Assembly (NCBI GenBank): GCA_963790475.1 | Contig: CAWBOS010000006.1 | Span: 512,001 to 576,000 of the forward strand | Length of the DNA stretch: 64,000 nucleotides | From: an uncultured delta proteobacterium | GTDB taxonomy: Bacteria > Desulfobacterota > RBG-13-43-22 | Reading direction: 5' to 3' | Part shown: positions 8,446-60,977 of the stretch, one piece after another | How the letters are laid out: every line of letters starts with the position of its first letter | Position numbering within the stretch: position 1 is the first letter of the stretch | The notes under the pieces: generated by a model | The model's database searches: none | Told to the model about the DNA's origin: nothing | The model's input: the letters and a program-made list of their open reading frames with translations, nothing else | Position numbers and translations under genes: made by a program

Positions 8446-9417
8446 ATGAAACTGGGATCTCAAACCATAACTTTTCCCTATGTAATGGCCCCCATGGCCG
8501 GGTATACGGACCTGCCTTTCCGTTTACTGGTTCGGAAGTTAGGCTGCGAACTGGCCTATACCGAAATGGTCAGCGCTGAAGGATTGGTTCGACATATCCC
8601 CTTAACCTGGTCAATCCTCAAAACCGTTCCGGAGGACCACCCCTTATCGGTTCAGCTGTTCGGTTCCAACCCGGAAGTCATGGCTCAGGCCGCTGTTCTG
8701 GCCGGAGAGGCCGGGGCCGATATTATCGATATCAATATGGGCTGTTCGGTAAAGAAGGTCGCCAAATCCGGCTCGGGAGCGGCTTTACTGAAGGATTTGA
8801 AAAAAGCGGAACAGTTGATAAAAGCCGTCAGGAAGGCTACCCCTCTTCCCCTGACCATCAAGATACGTTCCGGCTGGAAGGAGGGGGAGTTCACCTACCG
8901 GACCATGGCCCAAATCGCTGAGGACTCCGGGGTGGACGCTCTGGTCATCCATCCCCGTTATGCGGTTCAGGGTTTTTCCGGTCAGGCGGACTGGCGGGTT
9001 GTGGCGGAAATCAAGGCGATGGTGCGGATTCCGGTCTTGGGCAGCGGAGATATCTCCACCCCGAAACAAGCCCTGGAACTCAAAAAGCAAACCCATTGCG
9101 ATGGCGTTATGATCGGCCGGAAAGCCTTAAGGGCCCCCTGGATCTTTAAACAGATCAAGGAAATGGAGGCCGGTGGCCCTCCCACCACTCCCGACCCCAC
9201 GGAAAGGCGGGGTTGGCTGGTTTCATATTGGCAATGGATTGAAGAAAATTATCAGGGACCGGCCCAAATCAAAGCCTTGCGCCGGACCTTATTCGTCCTG
9301 ACCCGGGGACTGCGGGCCTCGGGCGAGTTCAGACAAAACGTGGCCCTGGCTCCGACTAAGGAACGGTTAAGGGGCCTTTTTGAAGAATATTTTGATTCCC
9401 TGTCTTCATTGGAGTAA
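8446..9417 (+). CDS. dusB: tRNA-dihydrouridine synthase B
   Basis: MAPMAGYTD, IDINMGC, TIKIRSGW, HPR, DGVMIGR motifs. Confidence 0.92.
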   Translation: MKLGSQTITFPYVMAPMAGYTDLPFRLLVRKLGCELAYTEMVSAEGLVRHIPLTWSILKTVPEDHPLSVQLFGSNPEVMAQAAVLAGEAGADIIDINMGCSVKKVAKSGSGAALLKDLKKAEQLIKAVRKATPLPLTIKIRSGWKEGEFTYRTMAQIAEDSGVDALVIHPRYAVQGFSGQADWRVVAEIKAMVRIPVLGSGDISTPKQALELKKQTHCDGVMIGRKALRAPWIFKQIKEMEAGGPPTTPDPTERRGWLVSYWQWIEENYQGPAQIKALRRTLFVLTRGLRASGEFRQNVALAPTKERLRGLFEEYFDSLSSLE

Positions 9418-9584
9418 AATTAACGCATAGTAAAACTTTAGGTGTTTGATAAAAGTATCTTTCACCGCAAAGCTTGCTATATTTTAGAAAGTAGTTAAGC
9501 CGTACAAAAAAGGCTATACTCTTTCTTGATTTGAGGTCCAATTTGCAAGTTGGTTAAACCCAAACCAAGGAAAGGAGTATAGCC

Positions 9585-10844
9585 ATGAATAAGATTGAAA
9601 CAAAAAAACTTAAGAAGGTCAATGAAAAAACCCTTATCGGTACCGTGGACATAGGCAAAACGACCAATATGGGATATGGCCGCTGTCCAGACCGGACGGA
9701 AATCAAACCTTTTGAGTTTTTCAATAATGATCAAGGATTTACGAAATTTTGGAATCGGATGGTTGAGGCCAAAGAGGCCAATCACTTGGAAGAAATCGTG
9801 GTTGGTTTTGAATCCACCGGGTCTTATGGAGAACCCTTGCAACATTTTCTGATGAAACGGCCGGTGACACTGGTTCAGGTTAATCCTATGCATACGAAGA
9901 AGTTGAAGGAAGTCCAGGGTAACTCGCCCAATAAGACGGATAGGAAAGATCCCAAAGTCATTGCGGATATTATTGAGCTGGGTCATGCCCTTACCGTGGT
10001 CATTCCCGAAGGCGCGGCAGCTGAACTTCGCCGACTGACCCATGCCAGGGAGAGAGCCATACGAAGACGAACGGGCCTTTTGAACCAGATTCAGGATTTG
10101 GTCTTTATTGTCTTCCCCGAGTTTCTGCAAGTGATGAAGAATATTAAAACCCGCAGTGCCCAATATCTGTTGCGGCATTATCCGTGCCCGGAAGATATTA
10201 TCCAATGTGGTCTTGGGACCTTGAGGGCCACGCTGAGACGGGTTAGCCGAGGGAAGCTGGATAAAGAGCGAGCCCCGGCCCTTTATGCGGCCGCTGGCCA
10301 TTCCGTAGGTCTTCAAGAAGGCCGCAAGGCGATTCTTTTTGAGATACGAGAACTTCTTTCTGAGATTGAATCTTCTGACCAGTTTATTGAGAAGGCGGAA
10401 CAGGAGATGGCGGCCCTTCTTCCCGAGATCCCCTATAGTCATTCGATTCTGTCCTTGAAAGGGATAGGAGAGGTTACCACCGCCGGACTGATTGGAGAAG
10501 TCGGGGATTTTCGTAAATTTCATACGCTGGCTGAAGTCCTGAAGTTGGCCGGACTGAACCTCTTTGAAATCAGTTCTGGAAGGCACCAAGGGAATCGTCA
10601 TATATCCAAAAGAGGCCGGTCGCTTCTTAGGAAAATCCTCTTTTTTGCCGCTATCAATACGGTTCGAAAAGGGGGAGTGATGCATACGGCCTATCAAAGG
10701 CATCTGGATCAAGGAATGCCCAAGATCAAGGCCCTGGTAGCCATTGCCCGGAAGCTTCTCGGTGTTATTTTTGCCTTGGTGCGTGATCATAACGAATATA
10801 TGGAAAATTATTCAAAAGGAGCAACGTTAAAACTGGCTGCTTAG
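9585..10844 (+). CDS. IS110 family DEDD transposase/recombinase
   Basis: VDIGK, FESTG, KTDRKD (DEDD), LKGIGEVT, SSG (catalytic Ser), ISKRGRSLLR, ALVAIARKL. Confidence 0.95.
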   Translation: MNKIETKKLKKVNEKTLIGTVDIGKTTNMGYGRCPDRTEIKPFEFFNNDQGFTKFWNRMVEAKEANHLEEIVVGFESTGSYGEPLQHFLMKRPVTLVQVNPMHTKKLKEVQGNSPNKTDRKDPKVIADIIELGHALTVVIPEGAAAELRRLTHARERAIRRRTGLLNQIQDLVFIVFPEFLQVMKNIKTRSAQYLLRHYPCPEDIIQCGLGTLRATLRRVSRGKLDKERAPALYAAAGHSVGLQEGRKAILFEIRELLSEIESSDQFIEKAEQEMAALLPEIPYSHSILSLKGIGEVTTAGLIGEVGDFRKFHTLAEVLKLAGLNLFEISSGRHQGNRHISKRGRSLLRKILFFAAINTVRKGGVMHTAYQRHLDQGMPKIKALVAIARKLLGVIFALVRDHNEYMENYSKGATLKLAA

Positions 10845-10849
10845 ACCTT

Positions 10850-11015
10850 CTTAGCGTGTAAGCGGAGAGATTATCGTTTGCGGCATCTAAGGCGACTAAG
10901 TCGACCTTCTCGCAGAGCTTAAATAACTCTCCGCTTGCACCTTAACCCCAATAAAGCAAGGTTAGAGCTCTGTTGAGACTCTCAAATTACCAGAGTTGGG
11001 CAAGGTGTCACTCTA
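10850..11015 (+). ncRNA. Putative bridge/seek RNA in the IS110 right end
   Basis: Two hairpins with internal loops containing target-matching (TTTGCG, CGCAGAG) and donor-matching (AGCAAG, ACCAG) segments. Confidence 0.7.
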
Positions 11016-11070
11016 AGATAGTTACCAGTTTGTTTAATAATATTTAAAAAACTCTTGACAACAATAAACC

Positions 11071-11250
11071 AGACGCAAAGAACGCAGAGAGATTTTTTTG
11101 AACAATTCCAAGAGAGACGGGATTGTTCAAACCAGCTCTGGCCTCCAGCCAAACTGACCTCTGGAGGGTAGCGAAGGCTTTTCCCTTTCTGGCCTCTCAA
11201 CAGAAAGGGAAAATTATTTCTTCTTTGCGCCCTTTGCGACTTTGCGGTGA
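11071..11250 (+). repeat. Palindromic intergenic repeat (TTCACCGCAGAGACGC...GCGGTGA family) interrupted by IS110; 5' tip at 9461-9472
   Basis: Terminal inverted repeats; homologous to 59196-59379 and 46836-47027. Confidence 0.85.
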
Positions 11251-11292
11251 GAATATTAATTTTAAAATTTAAAAGGCAAACTGATACAAATT

Positions 11293-13020
11293 ATGAAAGT
11301 CCGTCTGGCAAAAAAGGCCGGGTTTTGTATGGGGGTCCGCCGGGCAATGGAACTGGCCCTGGAGGCCAGCTATCATTTTCCCGACCCCGTTTACACCTAT
11401 GGGCCCTTGATCCATAATCCGCAGGTTTTATCGATGCTGGAAAAAAAAGGCATCCGAATCCTGGACCCTGTTGAAGATCGGCAAACGGGCACGGTCATTA
11501 TCAGGGCCCACGGCATAGCTCCCCTGGATCACGAGCGGTTGAAAAAGAGCGCCTGTACCATCATTGACGCCACTTGTCCCAGGGTGATTAAGGTCCAGGC
11601 CATTATCCGGAAATACGCCCAGGAAGGATATACCACGATCATTGTCGGTGATCGGGATCATCCGGAAGTCATCGGGCTGCTGGGCTATTCTAAAGGCCAG
11701 GGGATTGTCCTGACCCATCTGGATCAGGTTAAAGACCTGCCGGATTTAGACCAGGTGATTGTGGTGGCCCAAACTACCCAGGACGAATCCCTCTTTCAGG
11801 CGGTGGTTGAAAAAATAAGAGATCGGTTTCCCAACAGCCTGGTTTTTAATACCATCTGTAATGCCACTCATCAACGGCAGGAAGAGGTGCGCAACCTGGC
11901 TCGGCAGGTGGACGGGTTGGTCATCGTGGGGGGCTACAACAGCGGGAATACCCGGCGTCTGGTGGCGATCGCCGAATCCGTGGGTACCCCTTGCTTTCAC
12001 GTGGAGTCGGATGACCAATTGGATAAGAAAGAAATCAGCCGGTTCAAGACCGTCGGGGTTACCGCCGGGGCCTCAACCCCCAACTGGATGATTCGAAAAG
12101 TGGTCCAGGAACTGGAGATAACCAAGGGACAGGGCGAATATGTCTGGAGTGCCTTTCTCTTTCGCTGGGTACGTTTCTCGTTAAAGAGTAATCTGATGGT
12201 CGCCCTGGGGGCCGGGTGTTTGACCCTGGCGGCCTCCCGGTTACGGCAGACCCCTTTAAACTGGATATACTTTGCCGTAACTTTTTTCCATATTTATGCT
12301 ATGCACATTCTGAATCATCTCCTCGATCGAGGGGCCGCGGAATATAACGATCCGGATCGTTCTCGATTCTATCAGACGTACCGATCGGCGTTCTTCATTT
12401 CAGGGGCCGGGGCCGCAGTATTTTCCTTGGCCCTGGCCTTGACCCTGGGTTGGGCACCGTTCTTTTTCCTGGCGGCCATGAGCGCCCTGGGTATCCTCTA
12501 TAGTTTTCAGATCGTGCCGGCAGTTTGGCAGCGCTTTACAAGGATGAAAAAAATCAAAGACATCCCCGCCTCCAAAACGCTTTCCGTGGCCCTGGGTTGG
12601 GGCGGCGTAACCACCCTGATCCCGGCCATGGCCGAACATCAGCCGCTGAGTCTTTCCCTGGTTATTATCTTTTTTATCATTTGTTCTTTTGTTTATATCC
12701 GTTCCGGTCTTTTTGATGTCTTGGATATCCAGGGGGATTTGATCGTCGGCAAGGAGACCCTCCCGATCATTATCGGAGAAGAAAAAACCATCCGTTTCCT
12801 GAAAAGGTTAAGCCTGGGGACGATGCTCGGCTTATCGGCAAGCGCCCTGGGGGGTCTTCTGCCCCATTGGAGCCTATGGCTTTTGATCTGTCTTTTGTAT
12901 CAATTTGGTTTTTTAATCATTTATGAAAAGAACCGGGCTTTGCCCGGGAATGTCTTTTTCGAAGCGATGGTGGAAGCCGGGTTTATCCTGGCCGGATTGG
13001 CAGCCCTCTTAATACCTTAG
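11293..13020 (+). CDS. ispH: 4-hydroxy-3-methylbut-2-enyl diphosphate reductase fused to a C-terminal UbiA-family prenyltransferase domain
   Basis: AGFCMGV, DATCPRV, TICNAT, GVTAGASTP; C-terminal multi-TM with NHLLDR and DVLDIQGD...TLP motifs. Confidence 0.9.
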   Translation: MKVRLAKKAGFCMGVRRAMELALEASYHFPDPVYTYGPLIHNPQVLSMLEKKGIRILDPVEDRQTGTVIIRAHGIAPLDHERLKKSACTIIDATCPRVIKVQAIIRKYAQEGYTTIIVGDRDHPEVIGLLGYSKGQGIVLTHLDQVKDLPDLDQVIVVAQTTQDESLFQAVVEKIRDRFPNSLVFNTICNATHQRQEEVRNLARQVDGLVIVGGYNSGNTRRLVAIAESVGTPCFHVESDDQLDKKEISRFKTVGVTAGASTPNWMIRKVVQELEITKGQGEYVWSAFLFRWVRFSLKSNLMVALGAGCLTLAASRLRQTPLNWIYFAVTFFHIYAMHILNHLLDRGAAEYNDPDRSRFYQTYRSAFFISGAGAAVFSLALALTLGWAPFFFLAAMSALGILYSFQIVPAVWQRFTRMKKIKDIPASKTLSVALGWGGVTTLIPAMAEHQPLSLSLVIIFFIICSFVYIRSGLFDVLDIQGDLIVGKETLPIIIGEEKTIRFLKRLSLGTMLGLSASALGGLLPHWSLWLLICLLYQFGFLIIYEKNRALPGNVFFEAMVEAGFILAGLAALLIP

Positions 13021-59195: not shown

Positions 59196-59379
59196 TTCAC
59201 CGCTGAGACGCCGAGGGCGCAGAGATGAAATATTTTTTTCCTTTCTGTTGAGAGGCCAGAAAGGAAAAAACTTTCGCTACCCTACGGGTAATGATTTGGC
59301 CGAAGGCCAGAGCTGGTTTAAACAATCCCGCTTCTCACGGGATTGAACAAAAATGATTCTCTCTGCGTCCTTTGCGTCT
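59196..59379 (-). repeat. Palindromic target repeat interrupted by IS110 copy 2; tip at 60978-60989
   Basis: Homologous to 11071-11250. Confidence 0.85.
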
Positions 59380-60977
59380 GGTTTATTGTTGTCAAGAGTT
59401 TTTTAAATATTATTAAACAAACTGGTAACTATCTTAGAGTGACACCTTGCCCAACTCTGGTAATTTGAGAGTCTCAACAGAGCTCTAACCTTGCTTTATT
59501 GGGGTTAAGGTGCAAGCGGAGAGTTATTTAAGCTCTGCGAGAAGGTCGACTTAGTCGCCTTAGATGCCGCAAACGATAATCTCTCCGCTTACACGCTAAG
59601 AAGGTCTAAGCAGCCAGTTTTAACGTTGCTCCTTTTGAATAATTTTCCATATATTCGTTATGATCACGCACCAAGGCAAAAATAACACCGAGAAGCTTCC
59701 GGGCAATGGCTACCAGGGCCTTGATCTTGGGCATTCCTTGATCCAGATGCCTTTGATAGGCCGTATGCATCACTCCCCCTTTTCGAACCGTATTGATAGC
59801 GGCAAAAAAGAGGATTTTCCTAAGAAGCGACCGGCCTCTTTTGGATATATGACGATTCCCTTGGTGCCTTCCAGAACTGATTTCAAAGAGGTTCAGTCCG
59901 GCCAACTTCAGGACTTCAGCCAGCGTATGAAATTTACGAAAATCCCCGACTTCTCCAATCAGTCCGGCGGTGGTAACCTCTCCTATCCCTTTCAAGGACA
60001 GAATCGAATGACTATAGGGGATCTCGGGAAGAAGGGCCGCCATCTCCTGTTCCGCCTTCTCAATAAACTGGTCAGAAGATTCAATCTCAGAAAGAAGTTC
60101 TCGTATCTCAAAAAGAATCGCCTTGCGGCCTTCTTGAAGACCTACGGAATGGCCAGCGGCCGCATAAAGGGCCGGGGCTCGCTCTTTATCCAGCTTCCCT
60201 CGGCTAACCCGTCTCAGCGTGGCCCTCAAGGTCCCAAGACCACATTGGATAATATCTTCCGGGCACGGATAATGCCGCAACAGATATTGGGCACTGCGGG
60301 TTTTAATATTCTTCATCACTTGCAGAAACTCGGGGAAGACAATAAAGACCAAATCCTGAATCTGGTTCAAAAGGCCCGTTCGTCTTCGTATGGCTCTCTC
60401 CCTGGCATGGGTCAGTCGGCGAAGTTCAGCTGCCGCGCCTTCGGGAATGACCACGGTAAGGGCATGACCCAGCTCAATAATATCCGCAATGACTTTGGGA
60501 TCTTTCCTATCCGTCTTATTGGGCGAGTTACCCTGGACTTCCTTCAACTTCTTCGTATGCATAGGATTAACCTGAACCAGTGTCACCGGCCGTTTCATCA
60601 GAAAATGTTGCAAGGGTTCTCCATAAGACCCGGTGGATTCAAAACCAACCACGATTTCTTCCAAGTGATTGGCCTCTTTGGCCTCAACCATCCGATTCCA
60701 AAATTTCGTAAATCCTTGATCATTATTGAAAAACTCAAAAGGTTTGATTTCCGTCCGGTCTGGACAGCGGCCATATCCCATATTGGTCGTTTTGCCTATG
60801 TCCACGGTACCGATAAGGGTTTTTTCATTGACCTTCTTAAGTTTTTTTGTTTCAATCTTATTCATGGCTATACTCCTTTCCTTGGTTTGGGTTTAACCAA
60901 CTTGCAAATTGGACCTCAAATCAAGAAAGAGTATAGCCTTTTTTGTACGGCTTAACTACTTTCTAAAATATAGCAAG
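59380..60977 (-). mobile_element. IS110-family element copy 2 (inverted)
   Basis: Same length (1598 bp) and identical protein; CT at 59378-59379 and 60978-60979. Confidence 0.93.
59606..60865 (-). CDS. IS110 family transposase
   Basis: Identical translation to 9585-10844. Confidence 0.95.
   Translation of the reverse strand: MNKIETKKLKKVNEKTLIGTVDIGKTTNMGYGRCPDRTEIKPFEFFNNDQGFTKFWNRMVEAKEANHLEEIVVGFESTGSYGEPLQHFLMKRPVTLVQVNPMHTKKLKEVQGNSPNKTDRKDPKVIADIIELGHALTVVIPEGAAAELRRLTHARERAIRRRTGLLNQIQDLVFIVFPEFLQVMKNIKTRSAQYLLRHYPCPEDIIQCGLGTLRATLRRVSRGKLDKERAPALYAAAGHSVGLQEGRKAILFEIRELLSEIESSDQFIEKAEQEMAALLPEIPYSHSILSLKGIGEVTTAGLIGEVGDFRKFHTLAEVLKLAGLNLFEISSGRHQGNRHISKRGRSLLRKILFFAAINTVRKGGVMHTAYQRHLDQGMPKIKALVAIARKLLGVIFALVRDHNEYMENYSKGATLKLAA

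What the first reader, a model, noticed from the sequence alone, without database searches (positions are those of the whole stretch)
10845..11070. Readable bridge-RNA candidate in the IS110 right end, with guides matching both target and donor
Seen: the 226-nt non-coding right end folds into two hairpins. Hairpin 1 (stem 10856-10869 with 10927-10940; inner stem AAGGCGAC/GTCGACCTT) has an internal loop carrying TTTGCG (10877-10882) and CGCAGAG (10911-10917). These match the two sides of the reconstructed target CTTTGCGT-CT-CTGCGGTG, one as identity and one as reverse complement. Hairpin 2 (CACCTT..CCCA / TGGGCAAGGTG; inner AGAGCTC/GAGACTCT) carries AGCAAG (10955-10960) and ACCAG (10989-10993), matching the circle-junction donor TAGCAAG-CT-GGTTTAT in the same manner. 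Established: IS110/IS1111 recombinases use bispecific bridge/seek RNAs with target- and donor-binding loops. Inference: this is an RNA-guided recombinase with the RNA encoded downstream of the ORF, a CT/AG core, and guides that can be read directly. I could not identify clear sub-terminal IRs, so it may be a distinct subgroup.
Basis: partly seen in the sequence, partly recalled or inferred. Interest (0 to 1): 0.88.

Follow-up and report, generated by a model that had tools for sequence, protein, structure and literature searches.

The report
Bridge RNA in IS110-family right end
The non-coding right end of this insertion sequence encodes a two-loop guide RNA whose loop letters match the insertion site and the element's own ends, a well-supported but ordinary new member of the known RNA-guided bridge/seek recombinase systems.

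Summary
The 226-nt right end folds far better than shuffles.

The element is a 1600-bp IS110-family insertion sequence at window 9473-11072. The genome holds 10 near-identical copies, all inserted at an AG inside one intergenic repeat. Uninterrupted sites also exist.

- Structure: in 45 homologous right ends the two hairpins are conserved, and 28 of 37 pairs show compensatory change.
- Target loop: its two variable strands track the flanks. Matches are 200/252 and 171/234 positions against 118 and 111 for permuted pairings, with 0 of 10,000 permutations reaching the observed values.
- Replication: an independent metagenome set gives z = 17 and 12.7.
- Donor loop: it changes in step with changed element ends in four lineages.
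- Handshake: the letter after the donor-loop core tracks the first right-flank base.

This is the bridge/seek RNA mechanism published in 2024, in the right-end layout described for IS1111-type elements. It differs in having a 419-aa recombinase and only an imperfect 9-bp sub-terminal repeat.

RNA expression and recombination activity were not shown. I rate it a new member of a known kind, of moderate interest.

The parts
9463..9470 (+). Left target flank (LT), CACCGCAA at this copy
   Evidence: Junctions of the 10 copies; uninterrupted sites
9471..9472 (+). Core dinucleotide AG at the left junction. An AG stands at each junction of the inserted element, whereas an empty site holds a single AG.
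9473..9584 (+). Left end (112 nt). Starts with CTTGCTA, the right donor half-site. It carries the -10 hexamer TATATT at 9478-9483, the left arm of the sub-terminal repeat at 9480-9488, and a 5'-UTR stem (9512-9528 with 9566-9584) that covers the ribosome-binding site.
9585..10844 (+). Recombinase gene, 419 aa, with DEDD_Tnp_IS110 and Transposase_20 domains
   Evidence: Pfam. NCBIfam NF033542 'IS110 family RNA-guided transposase', 216 bits against a cut-off of 140. Alignment to IS621 puts E76, D119, D122 and S331-G332 opposite its catalytic E60, D102, D105 and S241.
10856..10940 (+). Hairpin 1, the target-binding loop: outer stem, internal loop and inner stem 10890-10908
   Evidence: Consensus structure, helices 1-2: 16 of 22 pairs with compensatory change
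10877..10884 (+). 5' strand of the target loop, UUUGCGGC. It is complementary to the top strand of core-G plus the right flank (G-ACGCAAA), with a G opposite A at the first flank base.
10911..10917 (+). 3' strand of the target loop, CGCAG-AG. It is identical to the left flank plus core, so it would pair with the bottom strand. The next base, C10918, equals the first base of the left end and is a candidate handshake position.
10939..11007 (+). Hairpin 2, the donor-binding loop
   Evidence: Helices 3-6: 12 of 15 pairs with compensatory change
10955..10960 (+). 5' strand of the donor loop, AGCAAG, complementary to the start of the left end (CTTGCT)
   Evidence: Compensatory cases: L040 has CGAGCT with AGCTCG; L074 has ATGCT with AGCAT; L077/L080 have AATGCT with AGCAT
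10989..10994 (+). 3' strand of the donor loop, ACC-AG, identical to the tip of the right end plus core. It is followed by A10994, the handshake base, which is identical to the first right-flank base.
   Evidence: L041 has ACTAG with ACTAG and L074 has AAATTAG with AAATTAG. Handshake matches: 34/39 and 48/56.
11055..11060 (+). -35 hexamer TTGACA. After circularisation it lies 17 nt from the TATATT of the left end, forming a junction promoter.
   Evidence: Read. Hexamers at this fixed spacing occur in 35 of 37 unique junctions of relatives.
11058..11066 (+). Right arm of the imperfect sub-terminal inverted repeat, ACAACAATA
11067..11072 (+). Right tip AACC (left donor half-site) plus the core AG at 11071-11072
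11073..11080 (+). Right target flank (RT), ACGCAAAG, the first arm of a palindromic intergenic repeat

Best explanation
Window 9473-11072 is an active IS110-family insertion sequence. Its right end (about 10849-11019, the same strand as the recombinase gene) encodes a bispecific bridge/seek RNA.

Shown from sequence:
- Hairpin 1 is a target-binding loop. Its 5' strand is complementary to the top strand of the right flank, including the G of the core. Its 3' strand is identical to the left flank plus the AG core.
- Hairpin 2 is a donor-binding loop. It reads the two element tips, CTTGCT and AACC-AG, in the same manner.
- The base after the core in the donor loop matches the first right-flank base. 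This is a handshake position.

Inferred by analogy with IS621 and ISEc11:
- The element excises as a circle joined at AG.
- The joint creates a TTGACA-17 nt-TATATT promoter that drives the left end, the recombinase gene and the right-end RNA.
- The RNA is cut out of this transcript and binds recombinase dimers.
- The complex pairs the circle junction with an AG inside the host's intergenic repeat.
- The DEDD/Ser active sites exchange strands at the core without duplicating the target.
For: - Family and residues. Pfam and NCBIfam place the protein in the RNA-guided IS110 family. The catalytic E, D, D and S positions align with IS621.
- Recent activity. There are ten copies, identical apart from one SNP, in different flanks. 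Empty sites carry a single AG.
- Structure. In 45 right ends, 96.8% of cells are paired and 28 of 37 pairs are compensatory. None of 500 shuffles reaches this, and slid controls pair only 31-47%.
- Strand. There are 86 G-U cells against 18 A-C cells, which puts the RNA on the + strand.
- Target guides, genome set. Right flank: 200/252 matches against 118 +/- 6.8 permuted (n = 36 unique guides). Left flank: 171/234 against 110.9 +/- 5.6 (n = 39). Both 0 of 10,000 permutations.
- Target guides, independent metagenome set. 299/350 against 159 +/- 8.2 (n = 50) and 233/306 against 146 +/- 6.8 (n = 51).
- Donor loop. It changes in step with changed ends in L040, L041, L074 and L077/L080.
- Handshake base equals the first right-flank base in 34/39 elements (permuted 24.6 +/- 2.0; reached in 1 of 100,000 permutations) and 48/56 (32.9 +/- 2.2; 0 of 100,000).
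- Junction promoter. Present at fixed spacing in 35 of 37 unique junctions.
Against: - No direct evidence of the RNA was obtained. Only Logan contigs of two metatranscriptome runs touch the region. They come from relatives and cannot show transcription or RNA ends.
- No + strand promoter-like site stands before the RNA and no terminator-like site after it. Its production from the recombinase transcript is therefore an inference.
- This copy's 5' target strand has G opposite the A at the first right-flank base, a mismatch at all 10 insertions.
- Some relatives fit poorly. In the genome set 7 of 36 score 4 or less of 7 on the right flank, and none of 39 matches all six scored left positions.
- No Rfam family matched.
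Confidence: 0.9

Rival explanations
1. Only hairpin 1 is the working guide, a short seekRNA that picks the target. Hairpin 2 would be a processing or stability element, or the DNA site where the recombinase recognises the right end, and would not be a donor-reading loop.
For: In IS1111-type elements the RNA most abundantly co-purified with the transposase was the short 82-96 nt form (PMC11187229 section 9). The donor ends are nearly invariant in this family, so donor covariation rests on few lineages. Four of the five X1 contigs laid on the RNA lie wholly or mostly over hairpin 1, which is very weak evidence.
Against: Both donor-loop strands change in step with changed ends in L040, L041, L074 and L077/L080. 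The base after the donor-loop core tracks the target's first right-flank base in 34/39 and 48/56 elements, including A, G, T and one C case. A purely structural hairpin has no reason to do that.
Confidence: 0.06
2. The conserved right-end hairpins act at the DNA level, as a cruciform or single-strand hairpin bound by the recombinase, or as a 3'-UTR stabiliser or terminator of the recombinase mRNA. The loop-flank matches would be a by-product.
For: No direct RNA evidence was obtained here. The hairpins lie directly after the stop codon.
Against: G-U pairs outnumber A-C by 86 to 18, which is strand-specific and typical of RNA. No terminator-like T run follows. A by-product cannot explain two strands of one loop matching the two flanks in opposite senses across about 90 different target sequences.
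Confidence: 0.02
3. The matches arise by chance because the target is a low-complexity heptamer repeat (CGCAAAG).
For: At this copy TTTGCG fits both sides of the target. The two loop strands can even pair with each other in the single-sequence fold.
Against: The same loop positions match unrelated, non-repetitive flanks in relatives, for example GATTCAA, GCTTTAG, GTTCAGG and ATGTGACCCCGG. No permutation reached the observed totals.
Confidence: 0.01

Closest known systems
IS1111-type elements with right-end seekRNA / bridge RNA (ISEc11, ISPa11, ISKpn4; Siddiquee et al. 2024, PMC11187229; Durrant et al. 2024, PMC11208160)
   Same: - Short left end and long right end (112 and 228 nt here).
- RNA encoded downstream of the recombinase gene.
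- The top-strand match lies 5' of the bottom-strand match (sections read).
- Sub-terminal inverted repeats flank the donor site.
- A promoter forms at the circle junction.
- The element inserts site-specifically into a repeated sequence without target duplication.
   Different: - The recombinase is 419 aa, against 330-350 aa stated for IS1111-family transposases.
- The sub-terminal repeat is an imperfect 9 bp, 6 of 9 in this copy.
- The donor loop is a simple internal loop, whereas many IS1111 orthologues are said to hold donor guides in a multi-loop.
- Phylogenetic placement against named IS1111 references was not tested.
IS621 bridge recombinase and bridge RNA (IS110 group; PDB 8WT6; PMC11208160, PMC11208158)
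   Same: - DEDD RuvC-like domain plus a Tnp domain with the catalytic Ser.
- One RNA with a target loop and a donor loop, each reading both strands.
- A 2-nt core shared by target and donor. Read on the strand on which the 5' loop strand is identical to the left half-site, the core here is CT, as in IS621.
- Handshake bases next to the core that match the non-cognate DNA.
- A junction promoter and REP-like targets.
   Different: - The RNA lies in the right end, not the left.
- Relative to the recombinase-sense strand, the order of the two guide types is reversed.
- The protein is about 90 aa longer, and its similarity to IS621 is weak: E = 4e-8, mainly over the C-terminal domain.
ISPpu9 of Pseudomonas putida (IS110 group; PMC12288879)
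   Same: Recombination occurs at an invariant AG at both ends. It inserts into palindromic extragenic repeats. A structured 5' UTR limits translation of the recombinase (passages read; compare).
   Different: In ISPpu9 the bridge RNA is upstream, its circle junction makes no new promoter, and its downstream small RNA (Ssr9) is dispensable for transposition. Here the downstream RNA is the guide and the junction promoter is conserved.

Membership tests
Bridge/seek RNA-guided IS110-family recombinase system | Recombinase with a DEDD RuvC-like domain and a Tnp (Transposase_20) domain carrying the catalytic Ser | tested here: met
   PF01548 (E = 2.5e-24) and PF02371 (E = 5.7e-20). NF033542 scores 216 bits against a cut-off of 140. 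E76, D119, D122 and S331-G332 align to IS621 E60, D102, D105 and S241-G242. The first Asp lies outside that alignment; D22 is invariant in the 13-sequence family alignment.
Bridge/seek RNA-guided IS110-family recombinase system | Conserved structured RNA with two internal loops in a non-coding end of the element | tested here: met
   37 consensus pairs in 6 helices, 28 with compensatory change and 96.8% of cells paired. No shuffle of 500 reaches this. The G-U excess places it on the + strand.
Bridge/seek RNA-guided IS110-family recombinase system | Target-loop strands match both strands of the insertion site and covary with it | tested here: met
   z = 12 and 10.7 in the genome set, 17.2 and 12.7 in the metagenome set
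Bridge/seek RNA-guided IS110-family recombinase system | Donor-loop strands match both element tips around the same core | tested here: met
   AGCAAG is complementary to CTTGCT and ACC-AG is identical to AACC-AG in this copy. There are four lineages with compensatory change. Variation is limited because the ends are conserved.
Bridge/seek RNA-guided IS110-family recombinase system | Core dinucleotide shared by target and donor, with no target duplication | tested here: met
   AG stands at both junctions of the 10 copies and once in empty sites
Bridge/seek RNA-guided IS110-family recombinase system | Handshake bases beside the core that match the non-cognate DNA | tested here: met
   The donor-loop base after the core equals the first right-flank base in 34/39 and 48/56 elements. 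For the target loop the evidence is thin: C10918 equals the first left-end base, with only L074 and L077 varying in step and exceptions seen.
Bridge/seek RNA-guided IS110-family recombinase system | The RNA is made, binds the recombinase and is required for and directs recombination | not testable with these tools
   Only contigs from RNA libraries of relatives were available
IS1111 group of the IS110 family | Guide RNA in a long right end and a short left end | tested here: met
   Left end 112 nt, right end 228 nt, RNA at 10849-11019
IS1111 group of the IS110 family | Sub-terminal inverted repeats of 7-17 bp | tested here: inconclusive
   Fixed-register repeat between left-end positions 8-16 and right-end positions 5-13 from the tip. 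It matches 6/9 in this copy, a mean of 6.73/9 over 37 unique elements and 9/9 in L077. Pairing is better than with permuted ends (249 against 226.9 +/- 3.9; 0 of 20,000). In this copy the best exact inverted repeat between the two ends is no longer than in shuffles.
IS1111 group of the IS110 family | Transposase of 330-350 aa related over its full length to that of IS1111 | tested here: not met
   Length is 419 aa, and most listed relatives are 418-420 aa. Relatedness to an IS1111 reference was not tested, because no named reference could be fetched.
IS1111 group of the IS110 family | Top-strand match 5' of the bottom-strand match in the RNA | tested here: met
   criterion taken from PMC11187229 sections 9 and 12
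IS110 group sensu stricto (IS621, ISEc21, IS110) | Guide RNA in a long left end upstream of the recombinase gene | tested here: not met
   The left end is only 112 nt and forms a 5'-UTR stem over the ribosome-binding site. The covarying guides are in the right end.

The most novel reading that the evidence does not exclude
In this element the single handshake base of the donor loop (A10994) decides which copies of a near-identical host repeat are used, and not the target loop.

All 10 insertions sit at sites whose first right-flank base is A. That base matches the handshake base but is mismatched (G opposite A) to the target loop. None of the 99 empty guide-compatible sites with C, G or T at that position is used. 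These include 21 sites with C that would pair perfectly with the target loop (Fisher p = 6e-8).

If true, natural bridge systems use the handshake position as a third, decisive specificity determinant. This long-recombinase, right-end-RNA clade would then be a compact model for studying it.

Against a general rule: across the family, where the two predictions conflict (15 of 70 confident cases), the real base follows the handshake in 5, the target loop in 6 and neither in 4. In addition, the A and non-A sites are the two different arms of the host repeat, so selection on arm or orientation is not excluded.
Probability: 0.3. Interest if true: 0.5.

Novelty: new member of a known kind. Interest (0 to 1): 0.35.

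Why it matters
This is a clean, fully readable natural example of an RNA-guided recombinase. Ten near-identical copies (one SNP in 1600 bp) and more than 100 empty target sites lie in one genome, and about 90 relatives each have different, decodable guides.

That gives a ready comparative data set for three questions: the rules of guide length, mismatch tolerance and handshake pairing in the right-end (IS1111-like) layout. That layout is less studied than IS621. The element is also a possible new orthologue for bridge-recombinase engineering.

It does not reveal a new principle. NCBI's family model already names the protein an RNA-guided transposase. Large surveys have already modelled tens of thousands of bridge RNAs (bioRxiv 10.64898/2026.10.21.760802, passages read).

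Tried and rejected
**Rfam.** A scan of 9300-11300 at E <= 1 found no relevant family, only a chance PhotoRC-I hit.

**Promoter and terminator scan.** No + strand promoter-like site stands before the RNA and no terminator-like site was found. An own promoter for the RNA is therefore unsupported.

**RNA evidence.** One search found two metatranscriptome runs holding small shares, 0.09 and 0.05. When laid, 5 contigs of X1 touched 10721-11072, 1 of the 5 at 95% likeness or more. One contig of X2 touched 10500-10676. They are contigs of relatives in RNA libraries and show neither transcription nor RNA ends, so I do not count them as support.

**Naming the subgroup.** tblastn against plasmids gave at best 35.6% identity, and hits to named elements were partial or weak. 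Two regions I fetched carried only the generic name 'IS110 family transposase'. I found no labelled IS1111-group reference, so no tree was built and placement is left open. The names of the IS110-type group with a downstream non-coding region are only in a figure of PMC11187229. Supplements were closed and may hold them.

**Longest exact inverted repeat.** A search between the ends gave nothing above shuffles for this copy. The sub-terminal repeat showed up only in a fixed register across the family.

**Handshake dominance.** The idea that the handshake base generally overrides the target loop was rejected as a family-wide rule.

**Rows dropped.**
- L036 was left out of alignment A2 because its hairpin 2 is replaced by other sequence.
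- L020, L040, L027, L046, L068, L074, L076, L077 and L080 had no anchor or too little sequence for A2.
- L037, L064, L068, L072 and L080 were left out because the right-end call was doubtful.
- 28 of 98 combinations were dropped for an unsure register.
- Scores take the best of 3-4 allowed registers. The same rule was applied to the permuted pairings.

**Other.** Loci L051 and L079 do not fit on the right flank and remain unexplained. No covariance model was built.

Full report
**What is there.** The finding lies in the non-coding stretch after a 419-aa ORF (9585-10844, + strand). The ORF carries the two Pfam domains of IS110-family recombinases. It scores 216 bits against NCBI's model 'IS110 family RNA-guided transposase', whose cut-off is 140. 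Alignment to the solved IS621 recombinase is weak (E = 4e-8) but places E76, D119, D122 and S331-G332 opposite IS621's catalytic E60, D102, D105 and S241.

The same genome holds 10 copies of the element. They are 1600 bp long and identical apart from one SNP. Comparing their junctions fixes the ends...CACCGC(A/G)(A/G)-AG|CTTGCTATATT...CAACAATAAACC-AG|ACGCAAAG.... The element is therefore window 9473-11072, counting one AG. A second copy lies at 59378-60977 on the minus strand. Uninterrupted sites with a single AG...CACCGCAAAG|ACGCAAAGGACGCAGAGAG..., occur elsewhere in the genome. Insertion thus happens at an AG core without target duplication, inside the terminal part of a palindromic intergenic repeat.

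**Check of the observation.** The 226 nt fold at -67.9 kcal/mol against -47 +/- 4.3 for shuffles. The one slip is the target string. At this copy the left flank is CACCGCAA-AG, a single mismatch to the loop's CGCAGAG.

**Structure in relatives.** The protein has thousands of relatives, and most of those listed are 418-420 aa. I fetched 73 loci from species-representative genomes and aligned 45 distinct right ends.

The scaffold is conserved: GGAGAUUAUC-[variable]-CCAUUAAGGCGAC...GUCGACCUUC-[variable]AG-CUU..AUAACUCC, followed by a highly conserved second hairpin. RNAalifold gives 37 pairs, 28 of them with compensatory changes. On that structure 96.8% of cells pair. None of 500 shuffles reaches the observed covariation, and sliding the partners drops pairing to 31-47%. 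G-U cells outnumber A-C cells 86 to 18, so the structure belongs to an RNA of the + strand.

For each element I extracted the two variable strands of hairpin 1 and the flanks next to the conserved tips.
- Right flank. The reverse complement of the 5' strand matches the first 7 right-flank bases at 200 of 252 positions (36 unique guides), against 118 +/- 6.8 when flanks are permuted among elements. None of 10,000 permutations reaches the observed value.
- Left flank. The 3' strand matches the 6 bases before the core at 171 of 234 positions (39 guides), against 110.9 +/- 5.6, again 0 of 10,000.
- No element matches all six left positions in this set, so the left guide is effectively 5 nt plus the AG core.

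I then took 80 further loci from metagenomes as a hold-out with the same rules.
- Right flank: 299/350 against 159.1 +/- 8.2 (n = 50).
- Left flank: 233/306 against 146.2 +/- 6.8 (n = 51).
- Both are 0 of 10,000.

Poor fits exist. In the genome set 7 of 36 score 4 or less of 7 on the right side, and L051 and L079 are unexplained.

**Donor loop.** In this copy AGCAAG (10955-10960) is complementary to the first six bases of the left end. ACC-AG (10989-10993) equals the right tip plus core. The tips are nearly invariant in the family, but where they differ the loop differs with them:
- L040 has CGAGCT with AGCUCG.
- L041 has a right tip ACTAG with ACUAG.
- L074 has AAATTAG with AAAUUAG, and ATGCT with AGCAU.
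- L077/L080 have AATGCT with AGCAU.
- L069, a degenerate copy, is an exception.

**Handshake.** In IS621, bases next to the core in each loop pair with the non-cognate DNA after strand exchange, and they modulate efficiency (PMC11208158 passages; PMC13626964 abstract). Here the base after ACCAG in the donor loop equals the first right-flank base in two sets:
- 34 of 39 unique elements in the genome set (permuted 24.6 +/- 2.0; reached in 1 of 100,000 permutations).
- 48 of 56 in the metagenome set (32.9 +/- 2.2; 0 of 100,000). The matches are G/G, A/A and T/T, plus one C/C case in L074.

A natural experiment sits in the window's own genome. The target loop carries G where it faces the first right-flank base, so it would pair best with C. 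All 10 insertions nevertheless have A there, which matches the handshake base A10994. Of 117 empty guide-compatible sites, 18 have A and 99 have C, G or T. Among the empty sites, 21 are otherwise exact matches to the guides and carry C at that position (Fisher p = 6e-8).

This is not a general rule. In the 15 of 70 confident cases where the two predictions disagree, the real base follows the handshake in 5, the target loop in 6 and neither in 4. In most cases (53 of 70) both agree with the flank.

**Ends and promoter.** TTGACA (11055-11060) and TATATT (9478-9483) would lie 17 nt apart across the circle joint. Such hexamers stand at that fixed spacing in 35 of 37 unique junctions of relatives.

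It is imperfect: 6/9 in this copy, a mean of 6.73/9, and 9/9 in L077. It pairs better than with permuted ends.

No + strand promoter-like site precedes the RNA and no terminator-like site was found. The RNA is therefore probably cut out of the recombinase transcript, which is an inference. The 112-nt left end folds into a stem that covers the ribosome-binding site (-33.4 kcal/mol, z = -4.7).

**Comparison with what is known.** Bridge RNAs (Durrant et al. 2024) and seekRNAs (Siddiquee et al. 2024) are established for the IS110 family.
- IS1111-type elements have short left ends, long right ends, right-end RNAs and longer sub-terminal repeats.
- In them the top-strand match lies 5' of the bottom-strand match, the reverse of ISEc21.
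- The element here has all of these layout features.
- Its recombinase, however, is 419 aa. That is outside the 330-350 aa given for IS1111-family transposases and inside the 395-455 aa given for the IS110 subgroup.
- The same paper notes that some IS110-type elements have a downstream non-coding region, but names them only in a figure.
- I could not fetch a labelled IS1111 reference, so I built no tree.

Read on the strand where the 5' loop strand is identical to the half-site, the core is CT and the guide geometry equals that of IS621. A 2026 preprint reports 32,190 predicted bridge RNAs under 86 models. This clade may therefore already be covered there, which I could not check.

**Verdict.** Direct RNA or activity evidence is missing: only uninformative contigs from RNA libraries were found. 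This is a new, well-resolved member of a known kind. The most novel point left open is the apparent decisive role of the handshake base in choosing among the host's repeat copies.

Noticed in passing
window 59378-60977 (- strand): A second, identical copy of the same 1600-bp element lies in the window. Its left flank is CACCGCAG-AG, the variant that matches the 3' target strand perfectly.
   Followed up: partly
window 11073-11250, and about 120 sites genome-wide: The insertion target is the terminal part of a palindromic intergenic repeat of roughly 170 bp. Both arms start with TTCACCGCAAAG followed by NCGCAAAGG.CGCA.AGA, and there are internal hairpins. The second arm lies on the minus strand at about 11221-11250. 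The two arm types differ at the first base after the AG. I did not study what the repeat itself is (REP/BIME-like or MITE-like).
   Followed up: partly
window 9512-9584: The left end forms a long stem, GGCUAUACUCUUUCUUG with CAAGGAAAGGAGUAUAGCC, that sequesters the ribosome-binding site just before the ATG (-33.4 kcal/mol, z = -4.7). The same stem sequence is seen in L041 and L047. It is possibly a translational brake like the 5' UTR of ISPpu9.
   Followed up: partly
window 10877-10883 with 10910-10916: In the single-sequence fold the two target-loop strands pair with each other, because the target is a direct heptamer repeat. The loop of this element may therefore be partly self-closed.
   Followed up: no
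L041, L047, L069, L068 right ends (and similar in L052/L054/L056): An unrelated hairpin repeat of about 40 nt (GGCTAACTCCAGTCGGGCTACGCCCTCCTTCCGTTAGCC-like) is inserted between the RNA and the right tip in several relatives. It lengthens the right end to about 320-350 nt.
   Followed up: no
L076, L068, L036: These are degenerate relatives. The target hairpin is lost or fused to the ORF (L076, L068), or the donor hairpin is replaced by other sequence (L036).
   Followed up: no
G000 loci L100-L106: The same genome holds other IS110-family recombinase genes: three copies with open frames of about 401 aa, two of 381 aa and two shorter fragments. Their guide RNAs were not examined.
   Followed up: no
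L051: The same 10 bases (GGATTTGTAG) flank both ends, and the right tip reads AAACCAA-G. The right flank does not fit the 5' target strand. This is unexplained.
   Followed up: no
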